A stretch of 64,000 nucleotides of DNA from Prorocentrum cordatum (taxonomy: Eukaryota). Below are positions 14,501 through 33,700 of this stretch, one piece after another. Positions within the stretch are counted from its first letter, which is position 1. Each line of letters opens with the position of its first letter. The DNA lies in NCBI GenBank assembly GCA_963575745.1, contig CAUYUJ010000226.1, positions 434,001-498,000 of the forward strand, in the 5' to 3' direction. Both the position numbers and the translations under genes were made by a program. The notes under the pieces are model-generated. The model was given only the letters and a program-made list of their open reading frames with translations. It searched no databases and was not told the origin of the DNA.

Positions 14501-15508
14501 ACATCCGGACCAGTCTAGGTAGATCGAGGCACATCCACAGACCTCCAGGGACGTCTGGAGCAGGTCGTGGCCTCGCCAGCGCGAGTCGGGCGGCGGCAGC
14601 AGGTGTGTTTTGAGCCCCTTTAGCGAGGCTACTGCGACAACGAGGTGGGCGGCTGCTCCGCCACCGGGCACTCAGGAGGGAAAGAAACACACAGACACAA
14701 GTAATCGTCGATCCCCCGGAAAATCTGCGAAAGTATGGGAAGTGGGGGGAAGACAAAAACCCAGAACATCTGGTAAAATATGGGGAATATCTTTGTTTGT
14801 GTGTATTTATTTGTGTGTGTTCTGGGGCCCCTTTAGGCACGGCGAGGCGATCCTGAAGGTGGCCCTGTGCCGCCACGCCACGTGGCTCCTGGAGGGCGGG
14901 CTCGCCCCCGACGCCGCGGCCGAGGCGGCGCTGGAGCACATGCGGAGGAGCGAGGGCCCAGGGGGCGGAGCGGGGGAACGGCGAGCACGGAGGCGCGTGC
15001 GGGGAGCGAGGGGGGGTCGTCGTCGTCGCCGAACGACGGGAGTGGCAGTGCGCCGTGCTCAGCACAACTGGCGCCCTCATCATCCAGAAGCCCTTATAAT
15101 GAGGACGATCGAGGTCGTTTCAAAGCAGTCCCAGGGGACTGCTTTGAACGCTAGGCAACGTTCAAAGCAGTCCCCTGGGACTGCTTTGAACGATGCGGAT
15201 GTCTGGCCAGAAGAGCGCAGGGAGGAACAGGAGGAGGAGGAGGAGAAGGTGGAGAGGGCTGTTGCAAGGTGCGCCGATGGCTCCTGTCCGTCGCCACGCT
15301 GTACCCAGGGGGGGAAGAGGTGGAGGAGAAGGAGGAGGGGGAGGGGTTCGAGGAAGGATCGGCGAGGTTTTCTCATCAGTTTCGGCCTCTGGAGGCCCAG
15401 CGGGACAACAAAGCCGCAGTTGCGGCGATCCTGAGTAATTCTTTCAAAATCGAAGATTCCCCTCTGCCCCTCTGCCTTCAGGGTTGTTTGCATATGTATA
15501 TATATATG

Positions 15509-15556
<48 letters not shown>

Positions 15557-15662
15557 CATGTATGTATGTATGTATGTATGTATGTATTGTATATATATAT
15601 ATATACATATATATATGTATATTTATACATATAAATATGTGTATATATATAGATTGTTGTTG

Positions 15663-15707
<45 letters not shown>

Positions 15708-18700
15708 TGTACTTGTCGTCTCCGTCGCCGCCGTCGTCGCCGTCCGTCCAGGGCCCCCCCCCGCTTCGAGTAGCGGTCACGGGGGGGCATCCTGGAGGGG
15801 CGCGTTCTGTCTCCCTCCCTGGGTTCTGGGGCGCCCCCCCCCCGCCGCGGGAAGCGGTCACGGGGGGGCGTTTTGGCGGGCGCGTTCTGACCACCTCCCC
15901 TGGGCCCTGGGGCACCCCCCTCCGCCGCGAGGAAGCGGTCACGGGGGGGGCGCCCTGGAAAGGTGAGCTCTCGACCCCTCCCCGATCCTCCTCACCGCAT
16001 TCTCCCTCCCGCCCTCCTCCTCCAGCGCTGTTCGGCTCAAGCAGCGCCGTTCGGCTCAAACCAGCGCCGGCGTCGGCAGTGGCACGGGCTCGCGCCTGCG
16101 CAGGATGGACAGATAATTACACGTATTGGCAAATATGTGCGAAACGGCGGCCCTGGAGGAAGCAGAGAAACATAGGGCCGCAGTTGCGGAGCCTCCATGA
16201 GGCAAAGACGGCGATGGGGCAGCTCGTGGATGGTGGGGCGACCGCGGTGGCGGACGGGGCGGCGAGGATGGCCGCAGTGGTGGATGGCAAGGCGGAGATT
16301 GGCGCAGTGGCGCATGGCAAAGGGATGGATGGGGAAACGGCGACGGAGTTGACCGCAGTCGCGGATGGGAGTGCGGCGGCGGAGGTTGGCAATGCGGAGA
16401 GGAGGGTGGCGGCGGAACTCATGGCGCCAGTGGAAGTTGGGAGGGCCGCGCCAGCGGCGGAGGAGAGGGCGCAGGCAACGCGAGCAGGACCGCTGGAGCG
16501 GATGGGAAGACGGCCGCGGGAGCGGTTGGGAAGGCAGCCGCTGGGGCGGATGGGAAGGCGGCCGCGAAAACCAATGGCAAGGCGCAGTTGCGCACGTCCA
16601 AGGAGAGGGCGCCCCCGCAGGGCGAGCGGCAGACGACGCGAAGGGCAAGGGGAAAACCGCAGTGGCGCATGTCCCAGGTCGAGGAGGTGCCGCAGCTGCG
16701 GACGCAAACCGCCCTGGGGTGTACACGTTGGAGTACTTCCAAACCTACGCTTTGCGCTGACATGGCAACTATAAGCAGCACAACGCGGCCTTGAAGTACT
16801 ACCGCGAAGAGTACGAAAACCCAGCTGACCCCTTCAACAGCCGATTTCCTGTTTTTGACCCCGCAGTTGTGGAGGCGATTTCGCGCATTATCAAGCGCAA
16901 AGGGCGCGGAGGGGCGCAGGACAACAGGGACTGGGAGTGGGGCCGCGCAGAACTGGCCCCGTGGTCTTGGCTGCAGCTGGTCGCGCAGATGGATGCGGCC
17001 GCAATGGAACTCGTCGTGCGCGGCCCTGACAACGACCGCAGTCGCGGATTAGTCAGGTGCGAGATTCGGCCGTGCCCTGGCAGTTACGACCACAATAGGC
17101 ACGCCAAAGGGGTGGACAGAGGAGAAGCGCAGGCAGTCCGCTTGCCCGCGTGGGATTTCGTTCTCACCCGCGACGACGGCTCAGGCATTCGCGTTCACCC
17201 GGAATGGTCCAGTCCGAAGTTCAGCCTGCGCGAGGTTGAGCCTCACTGGGGGCCCGTGCAGCCCCCGGGGGCGGGCCCCGGCAAGAGCGAGGGGCGCGGC
17301 ACGTACGCGTACTACAAGAGATTGCACGCCGTGCCAATATCGGGGCGGTTCGACGCAACCAAAGGAGCTGGGCTACAACCGAGGTGGGAGAGGGCTTGAA
17401 ACCGCAGTTGCGGAAACCGATCACGTGACACCGCGATCCTTTCACTCACTTCGCGCGTCGTCGTCCGCAGTTGCGGTGCCCCCGCTCGCACCCCGCGTGC
17501 GCCCGCCCGCAGTTGCGGCGCCCGCTCGAGTGAACTCCGCAGGCGGTTCGTCCGCGCATCACGCCCTTTGAGTCAGTCAGCAATTATCTGGGCTTGTCCG
17601 CAGCTGCGGCGCGCGGCTTCTCGCGCGAAGAGTCACGTAGAAAAACTCAACGGCTCATCTTGTCTTGCTCTTGTCGTCGCCTAATTAATTGTCTCTTCTG
17701 GATTCCCCTTCGTCAATGTTAGGCCCGTTGGTCCCACTTTGTCGTCTTCTATCTCTCCTCGATTCTCCTTCGTCGCCCCCCTCCTCCTCGTCCTTCCCAG
17801 TCCTGTCCTACCACGCTTGCGATCTTGAGGCCGCCCTCGGTGTCCTCGTTCCCTCCGTCGTTTTCCTCGCTGTCCTCTTCGTAATTGCCAATCCTGGCCT
17901 TCGCGCCCGTCGCCCTCTTCCTCATTCGCCGCAGCCGTGTCCGAGCATCTGTTGGGGGGGCGCGCTTCTCGCGGCGGCATGCCGCAGTTGGAGGCCACGC
18001 ATGAGGAGATGCTGGCGGCGCTGAGGGGCCGCCTGCAAACGCGCTCTGCAAGGGGGGGGAACCGCAGTAGCGAATCCCCCCAGCGAGGCCACACAGCGGA
18101 GGAGGAGCAAGCCGCAGTAGCGGATCCCACCCCGCGGCGCAGCCTAGCCGCAGTAGCGGTTCCCCCGAGCGAGCGCCGCGCGAGGCGACTTCGGCGTCGA
18201 GTTGCAGCAGGGATCGGCGGCGGCCGCCGCCGACGGGCGCAAGTTCCTCCGCGGCGCAGCCGCGCGAGCGGTCTCGGAGTGCCCCGAGGCGCAGGGAGGC
18301 GCAGTTGCGCCGCGCGCACGGAGCTCCCACTGGGATGACCGTGGGGGCTCCTAAGTGGATAGGGGGGTTAAATGTGGATGCCAAGGTGGGTTATATCTGG
18401 CCCAACCTGGCTTATAAGTGGGTTACAAGTGCCCTACGTAGCTTAGGGGGTTAACGATCTGGGCTAGGTGGGCTCCGCCCACTTAGCCGAGTTATCGACC
18501 CCTCCCAAGCTACTTAGGGCCCGTGTAACCCACTTATAAGCCAGGTTGGGCCAGATATAACCCACCTTGGCATCCACTTCTAACCCCCCTATCCACTTAG
18601 GAACCCCCACGGCCATCCCAGCAGAGCGCAGTTGCGCGCGCGGGACCCGACGCCGCCAGTTGCCAATGCTTCCACCAGGACCGCAGTTGCGCGAATACCT

Positions 18701-21700
18701 ATTAGTCCGTTTGACGCGGCAGGTCCGACCGCAGTTGCGGGAGTACCTCTCTCTTCGTCTTCGCCTGGGCCCGAAGACGAGGCCGCTTCTAAGGAGACGG
18801 CCGCCTCGGCCACTGCCCCCGAGGACAAAGCCCCCGCGGCCACGTCGAAGGCTCGGTTCGCGCAGAAGAGGCCTCGCCCTGTGGCGTCTCCTACGTCGCC
18901 TCCCCTGCAGCTTCCCTCGGAACCGCAGTCGCGGGGCAGCGCGGAACCGCAGTTGCGGGGCTCCGAGGAGCCACCGCGCAAGAAGCAGCGGACCCAGGGC
19001 ATCAGGTGCATGGGGGCAGCGCCCACGTGGAACCAGGGGCTCGCCAGGACAGAGGACGGCCTCCCCGTGCCGTCCACCCCCGCCATGGCTGTGAACGTGC
19101 TGGTCATCACTGCCGCGGCCACCAAGCAAGACGTCTTCGCCGCTGTCGATGTCCAAAAATCGGGAATCTGCATCGTCGCGCGGGACATCGAGGTGCTTCG
19201 GCCTCGGGAGGAACCGCAGTCAGCGGACCCCGCGCCCCTTCATGAGACTTTCCACGGCGCCGTCGTGGACGCCATCACGGCGAAGAACACGACCGCCAGC
19301 AGCGGCGAGCTGTATTGGATGATGGCGGAGCTCTTCGACAAGACTGGCCTCGTTGTGCGGCGCCCGCACTCTGCCGCAGAGGCCGCAGTTGCGGCGTCAG
19401 TCGTTGGGGCCATCCACGCCCTCACGATCGTACGGTTTCGCCTGAAGGGCAACGAGAGGAATCCTGCCGCGGTGCTCGGTTTTTCCGCAGTGACCAGGCA
19501 CGCGCTCCCCCATCCTCTTCAACCGAAAATCACGCAAGCAGAACACACACGTTTGGAGGAGTCTTTCGTGATGGAAGCCGTCGAAACCATCCATGCCCAA
19601 GATGTTCGTTTCCTGTGCGGCCTCTTCGACGTCCCGCCAGAGCAGTTCTCTGACTTCTGCCGCAGTTGCGGTGCGAGCTACAAGAGCCCGGTCGGAGTTC
19701 CGTTCCGCGCATGGCCCGCCCTGTTCGGAGGCATCAGATCTGGCACACGCGGCATGCATCCCTTCTTCATGGCCCCCATTGGCCCGAGCGACGCGCGCAT
19801 TGCAGACTGCCGTACCGACAGCGCAGGGCAGCACGCGGATCATGAGCCTCTCTGACTCCCCTACTGGATTCTTCGCACTGCCGAGTCTCTCATCGCACGG
19901 CGCTGGGTTGCACCTGAGCGCATGCCCAAGTGGCGGGAGGACAGTGACCGCAGTAACGGAATACGGCGACGCCTCGGCCTCCAAGCGCTGCCCCCCATCG
20001 GCAAGGTCGTTCAGAAGATGCTCTACCCCAAGACTTTCCAGGACCACTGGCGGGAAGGCGCCCACCAGAACATCATCTTCCTAGGGCACGGGCGAAGCGG
20101 CCAGAAAGGGAAGCACAACCAGGAGAAACCGCAGAGGTAAGCGGACCCGCAGTTGCGGGCGTTTCTTCCTTGCGCCGTACTTCTTTTTGCACGCGCATGC
20201 CCGTGGCGGACTCGGCGCGCATAGCCGCAGTTGCGGAACGATGTGCTGGGAGGGCCCGCCGTTGCGGCGTCAAAGGCTTGCTGGCTGCTTGAGTGCATGT
20301 GTCGGCGTGGGAAAGACCGCAGTTGCGGCTGGCGTTGGCGGAGGGCCCGCAGTTGCGGCGCGACCTGGCGCAGGGAGAAAGAATGCGTGCCCTTCCTCGG
20401 GCGCAGGGTGCCCATGAGAGCAAAAGGCGCGCAGGGAGGGGGGCGGCGGTGGTAATTAGGGTAACTATGTACTTGTAGTGGTCGTGGTACTGGTGGCGGT
20501 AGTGCTAGTGGTAGTGGTATGGTCGTGGTAGGAGGGTCATTGGTGTGTACTGGTAGTGGTCGTGGTACTGGTGGTGGTAGTGGTAGTGGCACTTGTAGGT
20601 GTAGTCCTAGTAGTACTAGTAGTAGTAGTCTTATTAAAAGTAGAAGAGCTAGTAGTAGTAGTCCTAGTATGTCTGGCCCATTGCTCTTGCTGAGGTCTGA
20701 GGTGAATCGTTTGGTCTCCGAAGTGGTCGGAGGTTAGTCGTTCGGGCCCCTCAGACTGACGGGCCCGGACGACTCACGCCCGACCGAGCATCCGCATCAT
20801 CATCATCACCATCGCCAGCATCACCATCATCATCATCACCACCCACCATCATCATCATCATCACCTCCACCACCAGACCCAGACCAGACCCTGACCAGAC
20901 CAGATTTTGAAACATGCCGCAGAATTTTGGGCTCGGGAAGTCTTTGGGCCCCTCACCCTCAGCCAGTGCCACAGGCGACGCACTTGGGGCAGTTTTCCTC
21001 AGTTGCGGAAGTGTCTGCCGTGGGCGCGGCTCGGTGCAATGAGCGACAGCTTCGGGAAAGGCGAGCAAAACGAAAAGGTGGGAGCCGCAGTGGCGGACGG
21101 ATCGCGGGGGATTTTCCAGAAGGCCACCGCGATTAGGGCGAAATTCAGGGACGGGAGCAAGAAGGTGCGCATCCCCGTGGTCTTGCTGGCCCCGCACCTG
21201 AACAAACGGGGCGGCCACTACCCTCAGCAGGAAAGGGTTCGGGAGTTCGCTGTGGAAATCATCGTGTCTGGGTTTTCGCAAGCGGAAGCCGACCACGAGG
21301 GCGCATGCGTCCAGATGTTTCCGACTCGAGAGCTGATGGAGAAAAAAGCGAAAGATTCTGCGTTCGAGACGTGCACCGAGCACAATGTCAAGAAAGCGAC
21401 AGGGCACCTCGCTGCGTGCTTCGACCGCAGTAGCGGGTCAGACATAGCGTATGGCAAGTTGTAGCATTCCCACTTGTGCCTCGTGTTGCGGGCAATCGCT
21501 GCAGGGGCCCGGCGGCCCATCCCCGCGGGCATGGAGTTAACGGAGGAAGAGCGCGCCAGGCTGCAGCGCGTGCTTGATGAGACTGGCAACACCAATATGG
21601 CCGCAGTGGTGGAATACGACGCTGTGGCCAAGAAGCTCACGCAGGAGGGCATGCTCATGGAAGTGCTCAGCTGGAGAATCATGGTCGAGGAGCCCACTGG

Positions 21701-24700
21701 CGCTTCCCTCATCAGCCAGTCGCTCAATAAGGGGGCGGACTTTGCGATGCGAGCGACTGAGGTTGCAGCGCTCAGCGTCCTGCGCAAGGCTGTTGACGCA
21801 GCGTTCGACGCCGCAGTCGCGGACCAGGTGGCCTTTGAAGGCGTGAGGACGTCAGTGATGCTCGAACTCGATCGTGTCCTTCAGGACCCCGGCTTCATTG
21901 AATTGTTTTCGTTTGTCGTTGGGCTCGGGAGCACGAAAGCGCAGTTCATCCACCTACTGCTCCAGTTCTGCGAGGTGTGCGTGAACTCGAAGAGAAGGGC
22001 TCTTCGGCTCGGTGCCTTTGGGATCGCTGCCGCGCTTCGCGACCACGTTCCGTGGGTCAAAATTGCGATTCTCATGCGATGCTACCGGAACGCGCCTCCG
22101 AAGATGCGCGGGGTGACCACCGCCGTGTGGTGCCCTGATCCAGAACCAGCCTGGGCGAAGAGTGAGACGCTGGACTTCTTGCAGGACATGAACGCCGTTC
22201 TCCGCATGTACTATCGCACGCTGAGCCCCGCCCTCCAGGACATGGGAAAAGGACAAGGCTTTGGAGTTCAAGGCGAATGTCGGCATACTGACCGCGGACA
22301 GCTACGCGCAGTACCTGAAAGGACACCTCGCCGAAGGAGCGACGCGTCATCGAATTTCGACATGCGCTCGTCCGCGCCGGCAGGGATGCGACGGAGCTGC
22401 TGCAGCCGAAGACCCACGCGGAAAAGCTCGCGAAGGCTGTGGGAGAGTTGCCTGTCGGAAACGAAAAGCCCGCTTGGTTTGATTTCAACGCGTTGCCGCC
22501 CGCGGACGCCGACAAGCCCGCAGTTGCGGGAAAGGCAACGGCCTCCAGGGAGGACGAGTTGGAGCCGAGGGTCATTTCCTTTGATCCCAATACGCACTTA
22601 TCCACAAACCAACATGACTGCAGGGACGCTACGGCCACGAGCCTCGGATCCTTCTCATTGCCAATCGACGAATGGAAGTGTTCAGCGGCAGCCCAGGAGT
22701 TAGGGCAGGAGCCTGCTCTTGCAGGCGCAGTCTTGTTGTGTCTTTGGGCGCGCCACAAGTCTGCAGTTGCGGAAGAGAAAGTGGGCGCGCTCCAAGACGC
22801 CGACACGGGCAAGCGCACCGCCCAGGCAACCGCCGCACACAAGGCACACTCCATCGAATTGTGGCCGTGCGCCCCAAAGGCGTCCAAGCTGCTGTCCACG
22901 AGCGCGCGCCCCGAGAGGGTGCCAGTGCAGGTCTGGGTCAAAGGAGGACCATATGCGCCTTCAACCAAGACCTTCTACCTGCTGCCAGAGTTCAAGCCCC
23001 CCTGCGGACAAGACGCCCGCCGAGGTGGCAGACCACGATGTGCGGTTGAGAACGTGGAACTGGGATGTTCAAGAGACAGTGCACCTCTTCTGGGCCGTCA
23101 ACAGAGTCACGCAGCAAGAGCTCCACCAGAGGAACGAGCGTATTGGAAGCGCAGTTGCGCGTGTCAACATGGAGCTCCAGGATGAAGAGCTGGCCGTGTG
23201 CGTTCCAGGACCAAGCGGGCTAGTGGTCGCCGTGAAGCTGCCCGCGCTGGTGAATACTGCGGACATCAGGCCAGGAGAAGAACTCCTTTGGGAGGCGAGG
23301 CCCAAAACCGCACAGAAGAAGAAGGCGGTCGAGGAGACGTGGAGGACGGATGCGAACAAAAGAGCAAAGGGCAAGGCTTCGGGGCAACCGCCGTCGAAGA
23401 AGACGAGGAGTGGCTTCGACGATAAAGGCAAGATGTCGCTCTAAGAAACCGCAGTGGCGGTTGCTCTACGAATTCGTTCCTTGATTCGGTGGTTTTCCGA
23501 AACCGCAGTGGCGGGTGTTCAGGCGCCGCTCGCTGCTGAATCATATCGCTTGCGACCGCAGTGGCGCAGTGCTGCAGTATTGGCTTGTTTGGTTAAGGAG
23601 GCCGTTAAGTGTCGCCGCAGTCGCGGATTGCTGACGTCCACGCACTGAGGTACGACCGAAGCTCTGAGTCCCATGCGGAAAAAAGTGTTGCCTTCAGTGC
23701 TGTCGCGCCTCTTCCGGGGAGCACGTGAGCGCCCTCCTCGCGCCATCTGGGCGCCTCCCTCCGCCCCGCCCCGCCCCCCGCCCCCCTTGCGCGGGAACAG
23801 CGAGCAGCTCATCGGGCCGCGCGGCCGCCCGAAACGCCCCCCCGGGTGCAAACGTTCAAAGCAGTCCCAGGGGACTGCTTTGAACGTTCTCGCAAAGGAG
23901 GGCCTCGGGGGGGCGCGCGCAGACGGAAGGGCGGCGCATGCGCGGATGGGGGCGCGAAAGTCGATGTAGGGTCTCCCCGCAGATTCAGTCCAGGCGCCGT
24001 CTGGCTCAGAGCGCGCCACTCTCGGACGCGACCTTGCTGCCCGCGCGGCCCTGGTTTCCCGCAGTTGCGGTAGGGTCATCCGCAGTAAGCGGACATGGGT
24101 TCTCCGAGCGAATGGAGCCCTGTGAAGGCGCAGATGGCCTTTAGCATCCACGGGGGGCGGCTCCCGCAGACGACCCCCCTCCCAGAGAAGGACGTCAGAG
24201 TGCTCGACGCAGGGCCCCTCGGGCCAATCACGTTCGTGCACGTGAACATGCAGAAGAAATGGTTGCTGAAGGTGTGCGCGAGGGGTAAACCAACGGCAGG
24301 AGCGTTGAAGGCCTCCAAGGTCTAGCAGGACCTCAAGGACACACCGGCGAAACAGGAAGGCGCCGCAGTTGCGGACGAGGAGAGCGACGATGAGAGAGAT
24401 GGCGAAGATGACCCAATGATGGCCTTGGTCAGTGCTTCGGGGGCCACGAAGAGGCAGGCCGCGACTGCGACGCCCACCAAGAAGCAGAGGACGGGAGAGC
24501 GTAGCTCCATAGATTGCCTCGAAGACTTGCTTGCCAAGAGGCGAGGCTGCGGACAGACGCGCGTCCGCTGTGCACTGCGCGCAGATGCCCGCCAGGAGCC
24601 AGTTGAAGTTTCCAGACGACAAGGTCGTTCGCCACGTGCGGGGGGCCAGCTTCAAGCGGCGGACGCTGTGGCTCGACGCTAAAGACCTTGAGCGATTGAT

Positions 24701-27700
24701 TTTGACGATCATGGACGACGTGAGCCTCGACGGGGTGCCCGACATCACGGACGGCGATAAGGGCGAAGCCGCAGTCGCGGACGGCGATAAGGACGAAGCC
24801 GCAGTCGCGGACGAGCCCCCCGTGGCGCAGGGAAGCGGGGCTGGTTGTTACACCGGCGCATGGAACTTCAAAGGCGCTTGGGTGACCACCATCACGCGCG
24901 AGTGCGCCAACCGCGGCAAGACGATCGAGATGGAGGTGAAGAAACTGACCAAGAACAAATGGGGGACAGCGAGGGATGCAAAGGCGTACGACTACGACTG
25001 GGTCAGAATCACGGACGAGCAAAGGAAGCAGGCGGCCCTGGACTACCTCGACGTCGTCGCCCCGTCTCTCCTGCTCTGAGCTCGAAACCGAACTGGCCGC
25101 AGTTGCGGCGACGCCGCAGTTGCGGGGCTGAACGGGGGCGCGGGCACTGAGGCACTGAACGCCGCAGTTGCGGGGTTGCCTTCCGAGGGCCAGAAGTCGC
25201 TTGTCTTTTCGAGGGGTTGGGGTGTTTCACGAGAACACACCCCCGCGTGCATACTGGGTGCACGCAGACGCAGAGCTTCGTAGAGATGCATACAAACCTT
25301 GTGCGCGAGATGAGTGGGGCTTCCGCGCGAGCGGTGTTCAACAAATGTATGTGTCTTTCCCTGCGCCTTTCCTTTCTCCCCTTGCTTCCTTCCCCCTCCT
25401 GCTAATTAATTACCCTTGCCATTTGTTATCCTTTCCCACCCACTCCCGCCCTTCACTGTCATGCCCGCAGCCGCGTGCCAGGCCCGAGCCGCTCGGCACG
25501 CGGACGCCCATGGACGTCCCGGTGGGCCAAACATGGCACGGCCACGAGGACGGCGAGCACTTCGAGGTGGAGTGGCTCTGTTATGACAGCGGGGCGCCAC
25601 CGAGGAAGACTAAGTACGGCACCACGGGGGTCGCGAACATTCTGAGCCGCACTTGCGGCGGTCATTGCCCCAAAAAGATAAAAGGTGCACGCTTGTGCGG
25701 ATTTTCCGTGCACGGCGAAGTGGTCGTTGTCGCAGTGCGGCGACGTAGAGCCGCCTAGTTTTCACCTGCGGCCAACTACGTGGCGGCCAGGCGCAGCTGG
25801 ACCGCCCGCAGTTGCGGCTCCCGCAGCGGCAGCAGCAATTCCAGCACCAGCAGCAATTCCAGCACCAGCACCAGGAGCACCCGCTGCAGCAGCGCCAGCA
25901 CATGCCCCCGCAGCGGCAGCAGCAGGTCAAGATCCTGCGGCAGCGCCCGCAGTACCACCACTTCCCCCTCCAGCAACAGTGCTCCCTCCAGCAGCTTCTG
26001 CACCCGCCGCGGTTGCGGCTCCCGCAGCACCAGGAGCAGCTGCATCGGACACCGCCGCCCCCGCAGGGCCATCAGCTCCTGGCGATCCTGCGCCGAAGTC
26101 AACCGCGCCCGCAGCAGAAGCACCTCCTCCACTGGCAGAACCCGCAGTTGCGGGTGGAGCTCCTGAAGGGGTGGCAGCTGGCACGCAGGCGCCACTTGCA
26201 GCGCGCATGCCACCAGCGCGACCGCTGGAGGAGAGCTGGTCCAAGGCGCAGGTCGCTTTCTTCCCCTGCCCAGACCCGCGGGCAGCAGCCGCAGTGGGGG
26301 CGCCCACTGCCGCGGCCTTGCGCCCGCGGGTCGCGGCGCCACCCCTGGCACCAGAGACAGTAGTACCCCTGGAAGACGGCCCAGAGATGGAGGCCGCAGT
26401 GGCGGCGAGGGTGCCTGACAGAGTTATGGCGCTCATGAGGGAAATCCTGTCGGAGGGTTCCTACATAGGACACGCGGCATTCGTGCCATTTACCTTGCGG
26501 TTCGGGCGTCGACCGTACATGTGGGAAGGCGAAAACCGCAAGGACATCCTTGCCTTCTATGCGCCCTGGGCCTTGGCGACGTGCACTGAGCCATGCGCCG
26601 TCGACGGCGTGGCGTGCGCACTTCACAGGGGATCCCGCAAGACCGCGGAGGCTTGGGCGTGGGGGGCGCAGGACCTGTGGCCAGTAACTCCTGAGCACCC
26701 TCTCCACGAGGTGCGCCACTGGGTGGCCGCAGTTGCGGTGGGTGCGCCGTGCACGGAGGGGGTGGGCCCGTTGAATGAGTTTTACGGGCCTCTAGGCCAG
26801 TGGATCGCTGGTACCATTTGCGATGGAAACTGCGGCGTGGACCTGATGGCCATGATGTTGCAGAAGCCGCTCAATGCCGAGACGCGCAGGTGGCTGCGGG
26901 AAGAACTCTACGAGTTCGGAGTAGCCCGCTGGGGCGTGCCACGGTTGCACGACGTGCTCGCAGTGACGCAGGAACTCGACCTCGAGGCTGTGAACGCGCA
27001 CCGCAGTTGCGGGGGCAGTGGCCCTCCCAGGCCCATCGTCCTGGACGGCGCCGGGGGCGAGGGCAAGCCAACAGAAGCGCTCGGGGGGCCAGGCGCGCCA
27101 AGCCCCCTCCTCATGGAAGCGTTGATATGGCAAACGGGTGTGAAGGGCGACGGGGCGCTGTTGGCCATGGCTGCGTCCATGGCAGAGGCGTCGCAGGAGG
27201 AACAGATCAGGGCGCGCGCACTGGCCCGCGCGCGCCCGAAGCCCGCAGCTGAGCCTGATAAGCGCAAGATATGCCCGCGCACGCTCCGAGACAGGCAGTT
27301 GGTGTGCCAGGCGTTGGAGAAGCACGCCCGCAGTCGCGGTTGGTTGGGCGTTGGCCCTCTGCCACGTAGTTCGCTTGTGTCGTTTTGCGGGCGGTTCGCG
27401 TGGCCGAAGGGCTGGGGGTTGGCCCGCCAGAGGAAGACGGTTGCGCAGTGGTTCTACAGGGGGCGCCAAAAGATGCAAGGACCGCAGTGGGCGCAATTGG
27501 CCAGCGCCGCGGCCGCGGCACGCAAGGCGCGCCGACAAAGGCTCCATGGTTGGAGGCCGCTCTATACGAATGGTGGTCCCACATGAGGTATTCGGTGGAC
27601 TGGAAGCGGCGGCGAAGCGAACCGCAGTCAGGGAAGAGAAGCCCAAAATGCTCGCCAGGTTCTCCCAATCCTTGCTGCTCACCAAGGCGAAGCAACTCGT

Positions 27701-30700
27701 CGCGGAGTACTGCGCGGAGGCCGCGAAGCGGGGGATCAAGCCGAAAGTGCCGCAGTTGCGGGCGCGGTGGTGGACCAAGTGGCGGCGCTCTTACGGACTG
27801 AGCATGAGGAAGCCGAATCGCAAATACAAGATCCCCAAGTGGTTGCTCCAATCGCGCTTCGAGACAATGATCCTGAACGTAGCGCGGGTCCGCGCAGCCG
27901 CGGAGGAGCTTTCGGGGTGCGACCCGCACATCCTGAACTGGGACCAGTCGCCTTTTCACCACAACGAGTCCTCCTCAGCCTCGAAGCCGACCTTGGCTGC
28001 GAAGGGGGGCATTGTTCCGCTCGTGGAGGCGCGCGACGACAGCAAGAGTCGGTGGGCCGCCAGCCTGACGGTGTCCAGCGACGTGGAGGACATCCGCAGT
28101 TGCGGACCTCCGCCCGCGGAGCTGATGTTCAAGGGGGGGGCTGTCGTCGCCGAGGACTTGGCCGCTCGTGCCCGCAGTAGCGGCTTCCCGCAATGGGTGA
28201 GCACGGCGACGTCTGAGAAGGGGTCCTACCGCACAGACGACGTCATATCGTTCCTGCGGCGGCACTTGCGGGCATGGCCCGACGACCCGCAGTTGCGGGG
28301 GAAGTGGAGAACCCTCATGGCCGATGACCACGGCCCGCACAAAGCGGACGCTGTGCGGAGACTCAGCTGGCAGCGCGGCTACGCGTTGATCATTCATGGC
28401 GGAGGGACGACCGCAGTTGCGCAGCCTGTGGACACGGACTTGAACCAGCACGTGAAACGCTTGTACATTGCCCTCGAAACCAAAGCGCTGGTGCAGCAGA
28501 TGGCGTTAGGGAAACACGTGCCGCAGTTGCGGCGTGCCGAGTGCGCGGACTTGATGGTTTCTGTGCTCAGCAATCTGCAGTTGCACGTGAACGCTGCGCA
28601 GGGTTTTCGGAAAGTCGGCATGCGGGCGCCTTTTGACAAGTCTGGCGGTCTGGAGATTTGCCGAGAGGCGGCGCGGCTCTTGGAAGCAGGGGGCCTCCGA
28701 GCGAAAGTGGATGCCGCAGTCGCGGAGGTCAGGGAGGAATGCCGGAAGGGGCGCCTCAAGTGGTCATACAATGACGCGCACCGGCTCATGCACCAGTACG
28801 AGACGCATAAAGCCTCAGATGCCGTGTTGAACGTGCTCGGAGAGGAAGTGCTTGGCCTGGGGCCAGGCCACGAGGAGAGCGACGAGGAGGCGAGGAGGCC
28901 GAGGGAGAGGAGGAGGGCGACGAGGAGGGCGACGAGGCCGACTGGGAGGAGGCTATGGCGGAGCATGGCTGGGGCGATGATGGGTCTCGGGAAAAGCAGG
29001 CACCTATGGGCTGCGTGGTGGTGGGCGCCCATGCGGCCGAGCAGGTGGAAGTGGCGACGTCTCTGGCAGACACGCTTCGCGAGGTGGAAGGTATGCTGCG
29101 CAACGTGGGCATGGAGAAAGTGGCACAACAATGCCGCGCAGAACAACACGAGCAGAAGAAGCGGCTGCGAGAGCTGGCACGGGAGGACGACGACCTCCTA
29201 CGAGCGTTGATTGCCCAGCGAGACCACGACGCCGCAGTTGCGGCGAAACAGAGGCGCCTGGCAACAGAAGCGAACGACAGGACGAAGGCCCTCCACGACA
29301 TCAAGAAACAGATTCGGGAGGCCGAAGTTGTTCTGAGGGAGAAGAAGGAGGCCGCAGTTGCGGTGGAGGCGGCCCTGGCTAACAAGCACGCCCTGGCCCA
29401 GTGGAACCCAGAGGAGTTTAAGGTCAAGAAAAACAGGATGGCTGCTTTGGACCGCTTGGCTCGCGGAAAGGGCGTCCTCTCGGATGAACAGAGGGGGGGG
29501 GGGGGGGAGGGGGCGGTTGGTTCAAAACGAACTGGGGCGAACATGTACAAGGAGCATAAAGAGCAATGGCCGTTGACGTTTGCTGGGTGGCTGCAGCGAG
29601 TCGCCAGCGACGCGGCGTCTGGGAATCGCCCGGCGCTGTTGCAGTTCGTGCACTCGGAGACTGCGAGGACCCTGGGCGGGCAAATGGCTCTGGTGATTCC
29701 CGCCGTAGCCCCTACAAGCCGCAGTTGCGGACCTGGGGGAAAACCATCAGGAGTCAAAATGAATGCGAAAACCGCAGTTGCGGACTCTCGACAGGTCGCG
29801 TCGCTGCGCGCCCTGCGGACGGGTGGCCCCAAGTGCGTTTCAATGTGTGTGGTGATGCGACAAAATTGTTTCCTCGCCCTCCCTCTGCCACTCCCCCGCT
29901 CCCCTTGTCTCCTCGTGCCATCCGACTCCAACGTGTCCTTCTCTCCTCCCATCTCCTGCCATCTAATCCCATCATCCTTCTGGGCGCGTCGGTAGCCACC
30001 GAGGCTCGACGCGGCGCCCGCGCAGCCGCCCGCGGCGACCATGTGGGCGCCTGCGCGTCCGGGATTGGCGTTGCAGGCGGTGCCGCGCGGAGCTCGCTTC
30101 GCTAACGCTGTGCACATCCACGCGGAGGAAAGCGAAGCCGCAGTTGCGGCAGCTGACGAGGAAACCGCAGTTGCGGAAGATGGCGACGACCAAAGGACGC
30201 AAGATGGCGACAGTACCGTCGCGTCCTCGGCTGCCTCCGCTGACGAGGCGGAGCCACAAGGAGATTCGGAGGCCGCAGTTGCGGCAACCAAGGAGCCCCA
30301 CGTGCCGAAAGTGCCGTCGAAGAGGCGGACCTGGAGGCGGGTGCATGTCATCGAGACGAGTCGTGGGTCTGAGAAGGAGAGATCGGTTTACGAGGCTTGG
30401 CAGAAGAAAACGCAAGGCGAAGCGGGGCGCATCGGCTTCTACGCGGCCAACTTCGGACAGAGCGCAGGGAAGCCCGCGCGACGCAGAGACGAGTTCGCGC
30501 AGATCCACGCCAATCCTGCTCAAATTATCGCCCTTTGCGAGTGCGACGACGACTGCTGCAGGGCAATCTCTGGGGGGGGCGACGCGCGCGAGAGCACAAC
30601 CGCAGTTGCGGGCGAGAAGTTCATGAATCGCCCCCGATACAACTACTTGTGCGTCAAGGGCGGGGAGCCTTCGGGGGCCCTCCTCATCGGCCTCAGAGAC

Positions 30701-33700
30701 CGCAGCGGCGGCCAAATTGATCGCGTGGACTTTGCGAGGCTTTTCCACAAGAAGGAGAAGTCGAAGCCGAAGAAGAAGAAATCCGCAGTAGCGGAGGTGG
30801 CTGCGCCAAAATGGCACAACACGTACTCGAGGGCGATGGTTGCGCGTGCCACCCTGGGCGAAGCGTTGCCCCATTTGGGGAAATCCTTCCGCGTCATGGC
30901 GGCGCACGTCCACCGCAATTTGGCCAACCAAGACTGGGGCCCGCAGAAACTCCAGGAATTCTACGAGTGGTTCGCCGAGTACGTCGCGAAGTGGAACGTC
31001 GAAGTCTGCATGGGGGACCTCAACATGTGCATGGTCCAGCTCGTGTCCTGGTGCCGCAGTCGCGGAGTCACGGTGGACGTCGCTGCGTAGACCCCCTGGA
31101 AGACAGCAGGCGGCCAGCCCAGGGCAGACGGTATGGCAACTCTGTTCATCAGTTGCCCTGGGAGATGCGAGCTTCGGCATGGCCTGGGCGCTCTGCACGA
31201 CGGCCCTGGCGGGTTCTTAACAAACTCCCCTGGCGCCTCTTTCCACACCTTCGATTACACGAATGGCCCTGGGAAGATGCTGCAGACTTACTTGCCGAAG
31301 GCTGGGGCCGTCGCAGACAAGCTTCGCGACTTCGCGATGCCATCTAACGCCTCCGAGGCCGCAGTTGCGGATTTCGAACAAACAATGGCGCGCCGTGCAC
31401 GGGGCGAGTGGGTGCCCAACCCCTTCCGAGTCAGGCAGGGCAAGCTGGGCGACGCGATCTGGAACGGCTCCGTCGGCAAGGCGCGAAACGGAGCGCACTT
31501 CCTCATGGTGGCTTTCACCCGCAACACGGGCCGCAGATCACCAGAGAAGCTTGCTGAGAGGAATGACAAGGAAAAGAAGCGGAAGCAAGAGAAAGGCGCT
31601 TGCAAGGGCGGCCAGAAGGGCAGCAACAACGGAGGCGACTCAGACACCGCAATTGCGGGAAAGGGCGGTGAGCCGCCGCTGGCATCTCACCGCCCGGTTT
31701 GGGGGTTTGAGCCTCTAGGTCGTGTTCCGACCCCCTCTTATGCCGCAGTTGCGGTTGGGCCCTCTGGCGCCAGCGGAAGCGGCACGTGGAGGGCGGAGGA
31801 TCCCGCGAGGGAGTGGAGGGCGGGATGGCGCGCTGATGAGTGGTCGAGCTGGGCAGGATGGCGCGCTGATGAGCAGAAGTGGTGGGATGATAATCGCGCC
31901 GCAGTTGCGGACAGTGCCACGGAGGGTTCGCCTCCTAATCGCATGTGGGCGGGCATGCCCGACCAGGCGCAGAACGCGGGCCACGCGGGGCCGTGGAACG
32001 ACCGCGCTCCCTGGACCTACGAAACGACACGTTGGTAATGGCCGCAATTGCGGGCAAGTGCAGCAGAAGGTTTGCGGCCGCAGTTGCGGGCAAGTGCAGC
32101 AGAAGGTTTGTGGCCACAGTTGCGGACAGCGCTTCGTCGAGACAAGTTGGCAACTCATCATCGACGTCATCGCCATCTTCCTCATCGATCGACATCACCA
32201 TCATCATCCTGCAGCTGCTGCCCCTCATGTCGCCTTGCGAGGTAAGCGTTCAAAGCAGTCCCGGGGGACTGCTTTGAAGACTGCCTTGTAGCGTTCAAAG
32301 CAGTCCCAGGGGACTGCTTTGAAACGACCTCTCGTCCTCATTTTAAAGGCTTCTGGATTATCGGGGGTGGGCAGAACCCCCAACAGTGACACGTCGCTTA
32401 GTGAATTGTCCGTTTTCGGTTCTCGAGAGGGCGCCGTGGCCGTCATTTTCCAGGCTTGCAACCGCCAGGTTTGGGCCTCAGGTCGTTTGCACTAAACCAC
32501 GTTTTACTAAAGGGGCGTCTGTCCATCCCCGATTATACCTGCTGGGTACATGATGCAGCAGCAGACAGGTAGGAGAGACAAAGTCACAAGAGCACGAAAT
32601 CAAGGAAGAAGAGCCCCGCGAACGAGGGGGGAGCGAGGAGGGAGCCGAGAGGGCAGAAAGCAGGAGGGCGGCGGGGGCGGAGGAGCGGGGCCCGCTGCCC
32701 GAGCCGGAGGGAGGGGGCGGGAGCAGCGGGGCGCCGGGGCTGCACAAACGCGAGGCGCGGAGCTCCGAGGGGGGGGGAGGCCACCCCACTAAGAGGAGGA
32801 GGAGGAGGAGGAGGAGGAGGAGGAGGAGGAGGAGGAGGAGGAGGAGGAGGAGGAGGAGGAGGAGGAGGATGAGGAGGATGAGGAGGACCCCCTCCCCCTC
32901 CTAGTTGTCGTGGCGGCGGTGGAAGAAAACGGGCCCACCACGAGGCGGGCCGCCACGAGGCGGAGGGAAGGGAACTCCGCAGTACGTCGCTGCCCTCCCT
33001 CCGCCGTCCCCCTCTCGGGGCCTCCTGGCCCTCGGCGCCACCGCTGGAGCCGCCTCGCAAAAGTCTGGTCGGAGCGCCCCCCGGAGCTGGCTGTCGTTGC
33101 CTGCAGCTGTGTCTGGTTTACCAGATCTCAACCTGCCTCAGGCGCCTTCCTGCCTCGAGAACCGGTGTGCTCTCGCTGCGTTTTGGGATTCCCTTGCAGG
33201 GCCTGAACCCCATCTGCCTTGTCCGCCTTCCTGCTTCGTGTCTTTGCCTACAGTGAGCGGCTTGAGTAAGGAACACTTACTTTTCAAAAGGGGCTCGGTC
33301 GTTCCTTAGGCTTGCATGCGCTAGTTGCAGTTCCTCATGCGTTATTTTTTCTTATTTATCGTTCCTTATGCGTTATTCCTTGGGATACAAAAAAAACGAG
33401 GTTTCGTTCCTTAGTTATCGTTCCTTTGGTCAGGCCGATGACTGTACTTCTTCCGACCGGCGCGTGGCGGCGACGGTGCTTCCGAGTCTTCCCCCAGGAA
33501 GTGCGGCGGCGGCCCCGGCGGGGGCGCGACCGGAGGGCTCATTATCGGCGGCTGCAGCGGGTGCGGCCACGCCGTGGGCGTGGCTTGCGATCCCCGTCGG
33601 GTGGTCACCGCTCGGGGCGATCGAAGTGGGTACGGAAAGACTTCCCAGGCGGGGAAATATACATGACCACCGCCTGGAGGATCGATTTCTCGGAGGCCTC

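What the first reader, a model, noticed from the sequence alone, without database searches (positions are those of the whole stretch)
15414..32125. Element-wide, strand-polarised 12-mer CCGCAGT(T)GCGG written through coding and non-coding DNA
Seen: roughly 80-90 copies by eye including 1-2 mismatch variants, about one per 200 bp (e.g. 17402, 18947, 20225, 25097, 27750, 28287, 30138, 31743). I saw essentially none in the other ~47 kb. Position 8 varies (T most often, also C/A/G). The site is nearly palindromic (CCGCA-GT-TGCGG), yet copies read CCGCAGT on the + strand. Within the transposase alone it appears in all three frames (PQLR, RSCG, TAVA), once just before the catalytic QPVD, so it is not a peptide repeat. 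Known analogues of frame-independent over-represented words are cyanobacterial HIP1, DNA uptake sequences, Chi and parS. Inference: it is a self-marking binding site for an element-encoded protein, or the footprint of a site-generating repair or methylation process.
Basis: partly seen in the sequence, partly recalled or inferred. Interest (0 to 1): 0.93.

Follow-up and report, generated by a model that had tools for sequence, protein, structure and literature searches.

The report
Sense-strand hairpin word tagging a transposon
A 17-kb jumping gene from a marine-type eukaryote, and all its relatives examined, carry dozens of copies of one tiny hairpin-forming 12-letter word on the coding strand only, kept by selection, which looks like a previously undescribed self-tag read by an unknown factor.

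Summary
CCGCAGTNGCGG occurs 58 times exactly (80 with up to 1 mismatch), always on the + strand and only between 15414 and 32125. Shuffles predict 0.07 copies.

The field fills a 17.3-kb element with terminal inverted repeats (15082-32358). Its transposase folds like mariner Mos1 (Z 10.8) but matches no Pfam family.

All 58 metagenome loci that encode relatives of this transposase (37-53% identity) carry the same word on the sense strand: 629 copies against 4, window included.
- Sites are kept by purifying selection: 72 of 104 aligned sites are intact, against 11 expected.
- The two arms covary: 35 compensatory double changes, against about 7 expected.
- In several lineages the stem extends into free flanking sequence.
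- Loop letters are fixed by clade.
- Copies are five-fold enriched in the 30 nt after stop codons and depleted in presumed promoter spacers.

Best reading: a hairpin, CCGC-RGUN-GCGG, read in single-stranded form, probably in the element's own transcripts, by a co-evolving factor. What it does is unknown. My five literature searches found no earlier description.

The parts
15082..32358 (+). Whole element, about 17.28 kb. It is a decayed copy of a multi-gene DNA transposon and all recognisable genes lie on the + strand.
   Evidence: Bounded by inverted repeats. The word field lies wholly inside it. The gene order (gene 3, gene 4, Cys-rich region, transposase, EEP-like gene) is shared with loci L021, L005, L020, L033 and L040. 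Frameshifts split several genes.
15082..15192 (+). Left terminal inverted repeat. It holds two palindromic units of 32-36 nt.
   Evidence: 15082-15192 aligns with 32358-32247 over 114 columns at 88.6%; families I4, I11 and D12; the pair of units folds at -71 kcal/mol, z -12.
32247..32358 (-). Right terminal inverted repeat
15414..32125 (+). Field of the word CCGCAGTNGCGG: 58 exact copies and 22 one-mismatch copies, all on the + strand
   Evidence: coordinates are listed there
17402..17518 (+). Three exact copies (17402, 17465, 17507), starting 3 nt after the stop codon of ORF 16761-17399
23449..23514 (+). Two copies (23449, 23503), starting 5 nt after the stop codon of the last gene-3 fragment (ORF 22704-23444)
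25097..25173 (+). Three copies (25097, 25114, 25162), starting 18 nt after the stop codon of gene 4 (ORF 24513-25079)
   Evidence: the neighbouring copies can also pair with each other (-21.7 kcal/mol).
32040..32125 (+). A 36-bp tandem repeat (2.4 units) between the last stop codon (32038) and the right inverted repeat. Each unit carries the word or a one-off variant (32042, 32078, 32114).
   Evidence: It is the counterpart of the 15-bp-period array of more than 50 copies at the 3' end of L026.
27144..29995 (+). Transposase gene, split by a frameshift into ORFs 27144-29210 and 28811-29995. The core motifs are NWDQSP, MADDH and [10 protein letters not shown].
   Evidence: 50 homologues. Alignment A1. 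Model mean pLDDT 60. Foldseek hit to Mos1 at E 9.8e-4. VIA-align to the Mos1 catalytic domain at Z 10.8, rmsd 3.5, 184 residues aligned. No Pfam hit.
25682..27586 (+). Upstream ORF with a conserved Cys/His-rich region ending in a DG(N/D)CG motif. In many relatives it is fused to the transposase in a single ORF.
   Evidence: Found next to the transposase in 36 loci. Alignment A3 gives the invariant columns C, C, D, C, H, D, G, C. Fused ORFs of 1474-1543 aa occur in L020 and L026. No Pfam or PDB sequence match. The resemblance to OTU proteases is recalled and was not tested.
29996..32038 (+). Last gene, split into ORFs 29996-31090 and 31091-32038. It is probably an endonuclease/exonuclease/phosphatase-like (EEP-like) protein.
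   Evidence: Homologues in L021, L040, L033, L043 and L020. Alignment A2 shows the invariant H..H...D.N of an LMGDFNM block. The Atlas points to Exo_endo_phos clusters at 0.87-0.89, which is a lead only. No Pfam or PDB sequence match.
20895..23444 (+). Gene 3, split into four ORF fragments. Its family of about 800-aa proteins has no known function.
   Evidence: Matches L021:1463-4051 and L005:2-2179. 38 database homologues, none of them named. No Pfam hit among 23 members.
24089..25079 (+). Gene 4 (ORF fragments 24089-24322 and 24513-25079), function unknown
   Evidence: Matches L009, and through L021:4770-5921 also L010, L005, L055 and L001
16761..19855 (+). Two ORFs (16761-17399 and 18584-19855) with no counterpart in the 58 loci. 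They may be lineage-specific genes or cargo, and they also carry the word.
23851..23886 (.). Internal copy of the terminal palindromic unit, between gene 3 and gene 4
   Evidence: family D12; pair I10, 36 nt, 100% complementary
18330..18621 (.). Nested insertion with 121-nt inverted-repeat arms. It is absent from sister copies.
   Evidence: pair I1, 93%; joint 18327 to 18622 seen in runs X1 and X3.

Best explanation
What it is. The 12-mer is the core of a small hairpin. Four G:C pairs (CCGC with GCGG) close a four-letter loop R-G-T/U-N, and in several lineages one or two further pairs of free sequence extend the stem. It is written only on the coding strand of a 17.3-kb DNA transposon with terminal inverted repeats. 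That transposon belongs to a large, unannotated family with a mariner-like transposase.

How it most likely works. The hairpin is read in single-stranded form, most probably in the element's own sense transcripts. The word would then act as a tag on all the element's RNAs. Copies are scattered through every reading frame, one or more sit directly behind most stop codons, and arrays sit at the 3' end. The likely purpose is control of RNA fate (3'-end definition, protection from decay or silencing, export) or selective capture of the element's RNA.

Shown here:
- the excess and the strand polarity;
- confinement to the element;
- presence in every relative examined;
- purifying selection;
- base-pair covariation;
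- clade-specific loops;
- the position bias.

Inferred:
- that the folded molecule is RNA and not single-stranded DNA;
- the function itself.
For: Excess and polarity.
- 58 copies on + and 0 on -, against 0.07 expected.
- Pooled with the 58 related loci: 629 on +, 4 on -.

Family-wide presence.
- 55 of 58 loci carry the A-form. The other 3 carry the G-form, CCGCGGTNGCGG.
- Peptide footprints in 150 representatives of the transposase family: AVA 312 against 76 expected; RS[CRSG]G 81 against 6.5.
- Gene-3 family: AVA 204 against 25 expected, present in 38 of 38 proteins.

Selection.
- 72 of 104 aligned sites are intact in a partner element that is 70-97% identical overall, against 11 expected.
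- Identity at motif bases is 0.69-1.0 across the 17 pairs (0.87 or more in 15 of them). It is 0.60-0.99 in the 12+12 flanking bases, and lower than the motif value in every pair.

Hairpin.
- Among 145 + strand sites with two stem mismatches, 50 have both mismatches at paired positions and 35 of those are Watson-Crick compensated. About 7 are expected. On the - strand control the figure is 1 of 55.
- The pair flanking the word (positions 0 and 13) is Watson-Crick in 263 of 549 sites, against 148 expected (z 11.9). Within single elements: L020 21 of 28 against 8.5; L009 13 of 15 against 6; L001 10 of 14 against 4.
- The count of structure pairs gives a covariation score of 0.178, against 0.114 +/- 0.009 in shuffles (0 of 500 reach it) and 0.057-0.109 for slid partners.
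- Stem transitions that keep a G-T/U wobble on the + strand number 82. Those that give a C-A mismatch number 30. Sister-copy differences show no background excess of C>T over G>A (table 1).
- A single word folds at -6.1 to -6.3 kcal/mol with 0.82-0.94 occupancy.

A co-evolving reader.
- A clade of 7 loci with 100/100 support has AGTC at nearly every site.
- L020 has AGTG in 25 of 28 sites. L009 and L016 together have AGTT in 26 of 28. L018, L019 and L044 have G at loop position 1.
- The labels need 8 changes on the tree, against 14 when shuffled (0 of 200 shuffles are as low).

RNA rather than DNA (68 genes in 49 non-redundant loci).
- Density is 11.3 per kb in the 30 nt after stop codons, then 6.1 and 4.6 per kb in the next two bins. 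It is 2.2 per kb inside ORFs.
- It is only about 1 per kb at 90-300 nt upstream of first ATGs, where coding constraint is absent.
- In the window, four gene ends are followed by a copy within 3-18 nt.
- All genes and all words share one strand.
Against: - No RNA data could be obtained, so sense transcription, transcript ends and folding are untested (one search listed no RNA holder).
- Every gene lies on the same strand as the word, so polarity relative to transcription cannot be separated from polarity relative to the element.
- The window's own copy shows no stem extension beyond the 12-mer (16 of 60 against 13.3 expected). The same holds for L034.
- Tandem arrays near one end resemble the subterminal protein-binding repeats of DNA transposons.
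- The pentamer GCAGT also occurs in the terminal palindromes.
- Covariation of a near-palindrome could in principle also come from a symmetric dimer on duplex DNA or from cruciform extrusion.
- G-T wobble is tolerated in DNA hairpins too.
- No element protein has a recognisable RNA-binding domain. None has any Pfam, PHROGs or NCBIfam match at all.
- The stop-proximal enrichment rests on stop-to-stop ORFs, not on mapped transcripts, and many of the genes counted are homologous to one another.
Confidence: 0.5

Rival explanations
1. A double-stranded DNA binding site. An element-encoded DNA-binding protein (the N-terminal part of the transposase or an accessory protein) binds the asymmetric 12-bp word all along the element. 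It could compact the 17-kb DNA and bring its ends together, or shield it from chromatin silencing.
For: The word is confined to the element. It is 12 bp long and nearly palindromic. Tandem arrays lie next to the right end in the window (32040-32125) and in L026 (more than 50 copies at a 15-bp period), much like subterminal repeats of DNA transposons. GCAGT is shared with the terminal palindromes. Clade-specific letters fit a co-evolving protein.
Against: A coating site would be cheapest to place in non-coding spacers, yet the spacers 90-300 nt upstream of ATGs are depleted (about 1 per kb against 2.2 per kb in ORFs). There is no reason for a peak directly after stop codons. The flanking pair covaries with free sequence. 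The excess of G-T wobble is specific to the + strand. Orientation is the same at both ends, not inverted as for end-binding sites.
Confidence: 0.22
2. A single-stranded DNA hairpin. It would be used during replication or transposition of the element, for example as a nicking, priming or loading site for the EEP-like nuclease or another element enzyme on one strand.
For: Hairpin covariation and strict strand polarity. The element encodes a probable EEP-type nuclease. DNA hairpins also tolerate G-T.
Against: The transposase is of the cut-and-paste mariner type, and I know of no single-stranded intermediate for that type (recalled). No HUH or Rep-like gene was found, but no ORF matched any family at all, so this is weak evidence. 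The gene-structure bias (after stop codons, not in spacers) has no obvious meaning at the DNA level.
Confidence: 0.1
3. A neutral by-product of a sequence-writing process with no function of its own. Candidates are short-patch templated conversion, spread of a 12-bp palindromic mini-insert, or a repair or methylation footprint.
For: Some elements have a uniform variant (L026 53 of 56 AGTC, L020 25 of 28 AGTG), which looks like homogenisation. At 12 bp the word would keep the reading frame if inserted. The window's dead copy seems to lose sites at roughly the neutral rate: 58 of about 95 remain intact while its inverted repeats are 88.6% identical.
Against: 5 of 6 sites in the transposase core lie in ungapped columns opposite other residues in homologues, so they are substitutions and not insertions. 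Orthologous sites persist between elements that are only 70-80% identical. Compensatory stem changes and free-sequence flank pairs need selection on pairing. The position bias around stop codons also needs selection. The host DNA beside the element has none.
Confidence: 0.08
4. A signal read by host machinery rather than by the element, for example a host RNA-binding protein or an editing or processing enzyme that prefers small G:C-closed tetraloops. The element would exploit it or be targeted through it.
For: None of the element's proteins is recognisably nucleic-acid binding apart from the transposase. Loop variants could track different hosts just as well as different elements.
Against: The 47 kb of flanking host sequence has no copy on either strand. 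A general host signal should occur in host genes. If the site were a target of host defence it should be selected against, not conserved.
Confidence: 0.1

Closest known systems
Dispersed packaging signals of single-stranded RNA viruses and of hepatitis B virus pregenomic RNA. I saw only the starts of the abstracts in the search listing: PMC6281560, PMC7612645 (loop motif RGAG) and PMC5431903.
   Same: Many short stem-loops share a loop motif. They are spread over coding and non-coding sequence of one strand and are read by a cognate protein. The loop here also begins with R-G.
   Different: Here the carrier is a chromosomal DNA transposon with a mariner-like transposase. No capsid gene is recognisable. 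The stem sequence is itself nearly invariant. Copies are concentrated behind stop codons. Packaging is pure speculation.
Polar, over-represented chromosomal words of bacteria: Chi, KOPS, DNA uptake sequences, and the palindromic HIP1 of cyanobacteria (recalled; one search returned only general papers on strand bias)
   Same: A short word occurs far above expectation, in all reading frames, with strong strand polarity (except HIP1), and is kept by selection.
   Different: Those words are read on duplex DNA, or by a translocating motor, across whole chromosomes. They occur about once per 1-5 kb and show no internal base-pair covariation. This word belongs to one mobile element of a eukaryote, is 5-20 times denser, and behaves as a hairpin.
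The 'hairpin rule' of Mimiviridae transcripts: polyadenylation at hairpin-forming palindromes that end each viral transcript (PMC4402537; abstract start seen in the listing)
   Same: A hairpin stands directly downstream of most genes. In relatives, 23 of 68 genes have a copy that starts within 30 nt of the stop codon. In the window four gene ends do.
   Different: As I recall, the viral hairpins have no shared sequence, are A+T-rich and lie only between genes. Here one conserved G+C-rich word also fills the coding regions.
Subterminal protein-binding repeats of DNA transposons, such as the 12-bp TnpA motif of En/Spm (recalled)
   Same: A 12-bp word specific to one element. Tandem copies lie near an end.
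   Different: Those motifs are restricted to the subterminal few hundred bp and occur in both orientations. This word runs through the whole element in one orientation.
Tc1/mariner (IS630-Tc1-mariner) transposons, for the element as a whole
   Same: The catalytic domain folds like Mos1, SETMAR and Sleeping Beauty (Z 9.8-10.8). The element has terminal inverted repeats.
   Different: The element is 17 kb long with at least five conserved genes. There is no sequence-profile match. No TA duplication is visible. In many relatives the transposase is fused to a long N-terminal Cys-rich region and a C-terminal helical region.

Membership tests
Tc1/mariner (IS630-Tc1-mariner) superfamily of DNA transposons | RNase H-like catalytic domain with a conserved acidic triad | tested here: met
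   VIA-align to the Mos1 catalytic domain: Z 10.8, rmsd 3.5, 184 of 200 residues. SETMAR scores 10.5 and Sleeping Beauty 9.8, while retroviral integrases score 8.2 or less. Foldseek hit to Mos1 at E 9.8e-4. Among the 13 sequences of A1, D262, D263, D298 and D300 are invariant and D135 is nearly invariant. The model is only moderate (mean pLDDT 60).
Tc1/mariner (IS630-Tc1-mariner) superfamily of DNA transposons | Sequence-profile membership (Pfam transposase or DDE families) | tested here: not met
   No Pfam family at E up to 10 for the window protein. None for 13 family members at E up to 0.01. The PDB profile search returned only chance hits.
Tc1/mariner (IS630-Tc1-mariner) superfamily of DNA transposons | TA target-site duplication flanking the inverted repeats | tested here: inconclusive
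   The flanks read ...CTCATC|ATCCAGAAG... and ...CTTCTGGAT|TATCGG.... No clear TA or other duplication is visible. The copy is old (inverted repeats 88.6% identical).
Tc1/mariner (IS630-Tc1-mariner) superfamily of DNA transposons | Terminal inverted repeats | tested here: met
   A 114-column alignment at 88.6% between 15082-15192 and 32358-32247
Dispersed RNA packaging signals | Multiple stem-loops with a shared loop motif on one strand, in coding and non-coding sequence | tested here: met
   Loop RGTN and stem covariation. Density is 2.2 per kb in ORFs and 2.9 per kb outside them. 629 copies on +, 4 on -.
Dispersed RNA packaging signals | A cognate coat protein and an encapsidated single-stranded genome | not testable with these tools
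   No ORF matches any family. The fold of gene 3 could not be predicted. No RNA data.
Polar chromosomal words (Chi, KOPS, uptake sequences) | Frame-independent over-representation with strand polarity | tested here: met
Polar chromosomal words (Chi, KOPS, uptake sequences) | Recognition as a fixed duplex word, without need for internal pairing | tested here: not met
   Compensatory changes keep the pairing: 35 observed against about 7 expected. Free-sequence flank pairs extend the stem.
Giant-virus 'hairpin rule' 3'-end signals | A hairpin directly after genes, and only in intergenic sequence | tested here: not met
   Enrichment after stop codons is present (11.3 per kb in the first 30 nt). 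But 428 of 629 copies lie inside long ORFs.
Subterminal transposase or TnpA binding repeats | Restricted to subterminal regions, in both orientations | tested here: not met
   Copies run from 15414 to 32125 with a median spacing of a few hundred bp, all on one strand.
Known RNA families (Rfam 15) | A match at gathering score | tested here: not met
   0 matches in 14500-33000 on both strands. A 12-nt hairpin is below what such models can detect.

The most novel reading that the evidence does not exclude
A large, so far unannotated family of eukaryotic DNA transposons barcodes all of its transcripts with a lineage-specific RNA hairpin, read by one of its own dark proteins. This would be a self/non-self tag of the kind RNA viruses use for selective genome packaging. 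It would let the element's RNAs be captured, protected from host surveillance or even packaged, so a cut-and-paste transposon would have an RNA-recognition layer that has not been described for this class.
Probability: 0.3. Interest if true: 0.92.

Novelty: categorically new. Interest (0 to 1): 0.86.

Why it matters
Short words kept by selection in all reading frames and on one strand are known from bacterial chromosomes, and dispersed hairpin signals are known from RNA viruses. I know of no such feature in a eukaryotic DNA transposon (recalled), and five literature searches found none.

- The feature is large. There are 58-95 sites in this one copy and 629 in the pooled set of the window element and 58 related loci. 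The transposase family has 2650 representative clusters at E up to 0.001 in a 1.84-billion-protein library, and none of those seen carried a name.
- It gives a concrete, testable handle on five or more conserved proteins of unknown function: one of them should read a defined 12-nt hairpin.
- If the tag acts on RNA, it would show how long intronless transposon messages can mark themselves in a host nucleus.
- The matched pairs of loop variant and element lineage are natural specificity-swap experiments.
- Practically, the word is a sharp sequence probe for finding and delimiting members of this family in protist genomes and metagenomes.

Tried and rejected
Searches that returned nothing.
- Family searches: Pfam on 18 window ORFs, on 6 at E up to 10, on 14 intact ORFs of relatives, and on the members of A5 and A1; PHROGs and NCBIfam. 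No credible family came from any of them.
- PDB sequence-profile searches with A1-A4: no hit, or chance hits only.
- The Atlas gave only weak leads: DUF3723 at 0.84 for gene 3 and Exo_endo_phos at 0.87-0.89 for the last gene.
- IMG/VR: no relative of the transposase.
- Rfam: no match.
- This scan's earlier findings: nothing on this genome or this sequence.
- Whole genome: none is held, so the word was not mapped genome-wide.
- Literature: exact-string search for six forms of the word returned only primers and unrelated text. Topic searches found no description.

RNA evidence.
- No RNA holder was listed. Only contigs could be laid, and they say nothing about expression.
- None of the 58 loci ends in a poly(A) tail.

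Other dead ends.
- Prokaryote scan for two copies 3-33 nt apart: 120 loci. By context they are tandem repeats and chance pairs in a 596-Gb collection, without transposase relatives. This is not evidence of a link.
- Target-site duplication: none convincing.
- End palindromes or inverted repeats in relatives: none found (L055, L035, L021, L033, L036).
Its fold remains unknown.

Ideas rejected.
- Peptide repeat: all three frames are used.
- A longer dispersed repeat: the flanks are not conserved.
- An in-frame 12-bp insertion: 5 of 6 core sites lie in ungapped columns.
- Splice-acceptor reading of CCGCAG: relatives have uninterrupted ORFs of up to 1543 aa.
- Regular spacing: gaps are broad, the coefficient of variation is 0.77 in the window, and there is only an excess of pairs closer than 50 nt.
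- Longer stems at stop-proximal copies than inside ORFs: only slightly (71% against 57% with at least one extra pair).
- Structural-variant breakpoints close to word copies: probably because alignments end at the conserved word. Not used as evidence.

Full report
CCGCAGTNGCGG occurs 58 times in the window. Every copy is on the + strand and lies between 15414 and 32089. In 100 dinucleotide-preserving shuffles the mean was 0.07 and the maximum 1.
- With one mismatch allowed there are 80 + strand copies, all inside the element, against 6 on the - strand.
- With two mismatches there are 99 inside and 10 in the remaining ~47 kb. The original element therefore carried about 95 sites, one per ~180 bp.
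- Position 8 is T in 39 copies, C in 10, A in 5 and G in 4. The ten bases on either side are not conserved, so the unit is the bare 12-mer.
- The only other over-represented words inside the element are microsatellites.
- The window looks eukaryotic: 58-68% G+C in most of it, many microsatellites and satellites, and one N gap. No whole genome is held.

**2. What carries the word.**
- The field fills a 17.28-kb element bounded by inverted repeats: 15082-15192 against 32358-32247, 114 columns, 88.6% identity.
- Each end holds two copies of a 32-36-nt palindrome. A fifth copy lies inside at 23851.
- All long ORFs with relatives lie on the + strand.
- The ORF 27144-29210 carries the motifs NWDQSP, MADDH and [10 protein letters not shown]. 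It has 50 unnamed database homologues and no Pfam match even at E 10.
- A model built from 13 sequences (mean pLDDT 60) is closest to the mariner Mos1 transposase: Foldseek E 9.8e-4; VIA-align Z 10.8, rmsd 3.5, 184 residues. SETMAR scores 10.5, Sleeping Beauty 9.8 and retroviral integrases 8.2 or less.
- Among viral models the best hits are annotated transposases of Tetraselmis virus 1 and a Tupanvirus.
By sequence the family is undescribed, and it is large: 2650 representatives at E up to 0.001 and 589 at E up to 1e-30.
- This copy is decayed. The transposase, gene 3 and the last gene are split by frameshifts, and a nested inverted-repeat insertion sits at 18330-18621.

**3. The word is a property of the whole family.**
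- A metagenome scan with the transposase alignment returned 58 loci at 37-53% protein identity, each oriented with the transposase on +.
- 55 of the 58 carry the exact word. In those 58 loci only 2 exact copies lie on the - strand.
- The other three (L018, L044, L051) and L019 carry CCGCGGTNGCGG instead.
- Pooled with the window there are 629 copies on + and 4 on -.
- Gene order is shared: gene 3, gene 4, Cys-rich region, transposase, last gene. Relatives have intact ORFs of up to 1543 aa.
- In two loci with long flanks the word stops abruptly. L055 has none in its first 2752 nt, and L035 none after 4338 of 7087 nt.
- The peptide footprints of the word are strongly enriched. In 150 family representatives AVA occurs 312 times against 76 expected and RS[CRSG]G 81 times against 6.5. 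In all 38 gene-3 homologues together AVA occurs 204 times against 25 expected.
- No relative was found in IMG/VR.

**4. Selection, not mutation.**
- I compared 17 pairs of related loci that are 70-97% identical. Of 104 aligned sites, 72 are intact in the partner, against 11 expected from the background identity.
- Identity at motif bases is 0.69-1.0. It is 0.87 or more in 15 of the 17 pairs; the exceptions are L044/L055 at 0.69 and L014/L019 at 0.77. The adjacent 24 bases are 0.60-0.99 identical, and lower than the motif in every pair.
- Caveat: local alignments may be anchored by the word.
- Inside the transposase core, 5 of 6 sites of the window copy lie in ungapped columns opposite different residues in homologues. 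For example TTAVAQPVD stands opposite TTPVAQPVD. The sites therefore arose by substitution and not by insertion of a 12-bp unit.
- All three frames are used: AVA 269, RSxG 116, PQxR 43.
- Sister copies in public runs have the canonical word where the window copy has decayed (27630/27631).

**5. It behaves as a hairpin on the + strand.**
- The arms CCGC and GCGG can pair around the loop AGTN. A single word folds at about -6 kcal/mol with 0.82-0.94 occupancy.
- Among + strand sites with an intact loop and two stem mismatches, 50 of 145 have both changes at paired positions (14% expected). Of those 50, 35 restore a Watson-Crick pair, against about 7 expected. On the - strand the figure is 1 of 55.
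- The position pair just outside the word is complementary in 263 of 549 distinct sites, against 148 expected. The next pair out is complementary in 197, against 138.
- Within single elements, whose sites are not homologous to one another, the extra pair is strong in some and absent in others. L020 has 21 of 28 against 8.5, L009 13 of 15 against 6, and L001 10 of 14 against 4. The window has 16 of 60 against 13.3, and L034 shows none.
- On a random sample of 150 sites the covariation score is 0.178. Shuffles give 0.114 +/- 0.009 (0 of 500 reach it) and slid partners give 0.057-0.109.
- Stem transitions that leave a G-T/U wobble on the + strand outnumber those that leave a C-A mismatch by 82 to 30. 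Differences among sister copies show no background excess of C>T over G>A.
- Because the T-form is self-complementary through G-U pairs, neighbouring copies can also pair with each other.

**6. The loop is lineage-specific.**
- On a transposase tree of 35 rows, a clade of seven loci with 100/100 support has AGTC at almost every site.
- L009 and L016 have AGTT, L020 has AGTG in 25 of 28 sites, and L018 and L019 have G at loop position 1. Other lineages are mixed.
- The labels need 8 changes on the tree, against a shuffled mean of 14 (0 of 200 shuffles are as low).
- A letter that is free in some lineages and fixed at dozens of dispersed sites in others points to a trans-acting reader whose specificity differs between lineages.

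**7. Position relative to genes.**
- I used 49 non-redundant loci (68 long ORFs with a downstream stop codon).
- Site density is 11.3 per kb in the first 30 nt after the stop codon (23 sites), 6.1 in the next 30 nt and 4.6 in the next. After that it falls to about 2 per kb.
- Inside ORFs it is 2.2 per kb. At 90-300 nt upstream of first ATGs it is about 1 per kb, 13 sites in 13.4 kb.
- In the window, copies start 3, 5, 18 and 4 nt after the stop codons at 17399, 23444, 25079 and 32038.
- Tandem copies lie between the last gene and the right end: 32040-32125 in the window, and more than 50 copies at a 15-bp period in L026.
- A site meant to coat the DNA would be cheapest to place in spacers. The opposite pattern favours a role in transcripts.
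- Caveats: the ORFs are stop-to-stop calls, many of the genes are homologous to one another, and no transcript data exist.

**8. Interpretation.**
- Firm conclusion: this is a selected, strand-specific hairpin element that is family-wide and has clade-specific loops.
- Most likely reading (about 0.5): it is read in the sense RNA by a co-evolving factor that is probably encoded by the element. It would act as a tag affecting RNA 3'-end definition, stability, export or capture.
- Rivals: a duplex-DNA binding site for an element protein (0.22), a single-stranded DNA site used in replication or transposition (0.10), a host-read signal (0.10), and a neutral writing process (0.08).
- I could not test expression. 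No RNA holder was listed. The fold of gene 3 could not be predicted either.

**9. Comparison with what is known.**
- Dispersed packaging signals of RNA viruses and of hepatitis B virus share the logic of many stem-loops with one loop motif (abstract starts seen). They belong to encapsidated RNA genomes.
- Chi, KOPS and uptake sequences share the frame-independent polar excess (recalled). They are duplex words without pairing covariation.
- The Mimiviridae 'hairpin rule' places a hairpin after each gene (PMC4402537, abstract start seen). As I recall, it has no shared sequence and no copies in coding regions.
- Subterminal transposase-binding repeats are local and occur in both orientations (recalled).
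- None of these fits on the features tested here.
- Exact-string and topic searches of the literature found no description. Supplements were not searched.
- Rfam has no match.

**10. Verdict.** The feature appears new.

Noticed in passing
window 25179 / 30132: Contigs of all four runs laid (X1, X3, X11, X2) join 25179 to 30132 with GGTT (in some X3 contigs GGTTT) in between. This is a widespread deletion derivative that lacks the Cys-rich region and the transposase. Both breakpoints lie 6 nt from a word copy (25162-25173 and 30138-30149).
   Followed up: partly
window 16193, 29371, 30286, 31898, 32076: Several other joints between sister copies end within 1-8 nt of a word copy. This may mean recombination at the word, or only that alignments stop at the conserved word.
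   Followed up: no
window 18330-18621: A 292-bp insertion with 121-nt inverted arms (93% complementary) is skipped in contigs of X1 and X3. It looks like a nested miniature element inside this copy.
   Followed up: partly
window 14600-15081 and 32359-32700: The DNA on both sides of the element is itself high-copy. Depth there is about 100 times that of the interior in all four runs. The stretch 32361-32532 recurs at 1238-1409 (93.6%) and, more distantly, at 49648-49762. Contigs join 32533 (X2) or 32511 (X11) back to 14672. The element therefore sits inside another repeat.
   Followed up: partly
window 23851-23886: An internal copy of the terminal palindromic unit lies between gene 3 and gene 4. 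The element may be a composite of two modules.
   Followed up: no
L026 6471-7251 (also L058): An array of more than 50 units of 15 bp (CCGCAGTCGCGG plus AAC) runs to the contig end, about 300 nt downstream of the last ORF after an A+T-rich stretch.
   Followed up: partly
L098 836-1097, L137 232-449; also L083, L085, L086, L117, L166, L173: Several MAG loci carry tandem arrays with a 41-43-bp period. Each unit holds the same hairpin core CCGCAGTTGCGG with extended arms such as TTCCCGC/GCGGGAA. L083, L085, L086, L098, L117 and L137 are titled Bacteroidetes-type. L085, L086, L098 and L117 are A+T-rich. The titles of L166 and L173 were not shown. I saw no link to the eukaryotic element. It may be coincidence or a separate hairpin repeat family.
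   Followed up: no
window 15492-15704, 2361-4578, 4745-5962, 58189-60035, 60621-62900: The window is very rich in simple repeats: an AT/ATGT microsatellite just inside the element's left end, a 2.2-kb (CTA)n tract, arrays of 11-bp units, and a 90-bp satellite. L036 and L035 are flanked by similar 11-nt arrays (CAAGTGAGTCC).
   Followed up: no
window 25092-25130, 30131-30183: The T-form of the word is self-complementary through two G-U pairs. Neighbouring copies are therefore predicted to pair with each other into stems of 12-13 bp (-20 to -22 kcal/mol) instead of forming two small hairpins.
   Followed up: partly
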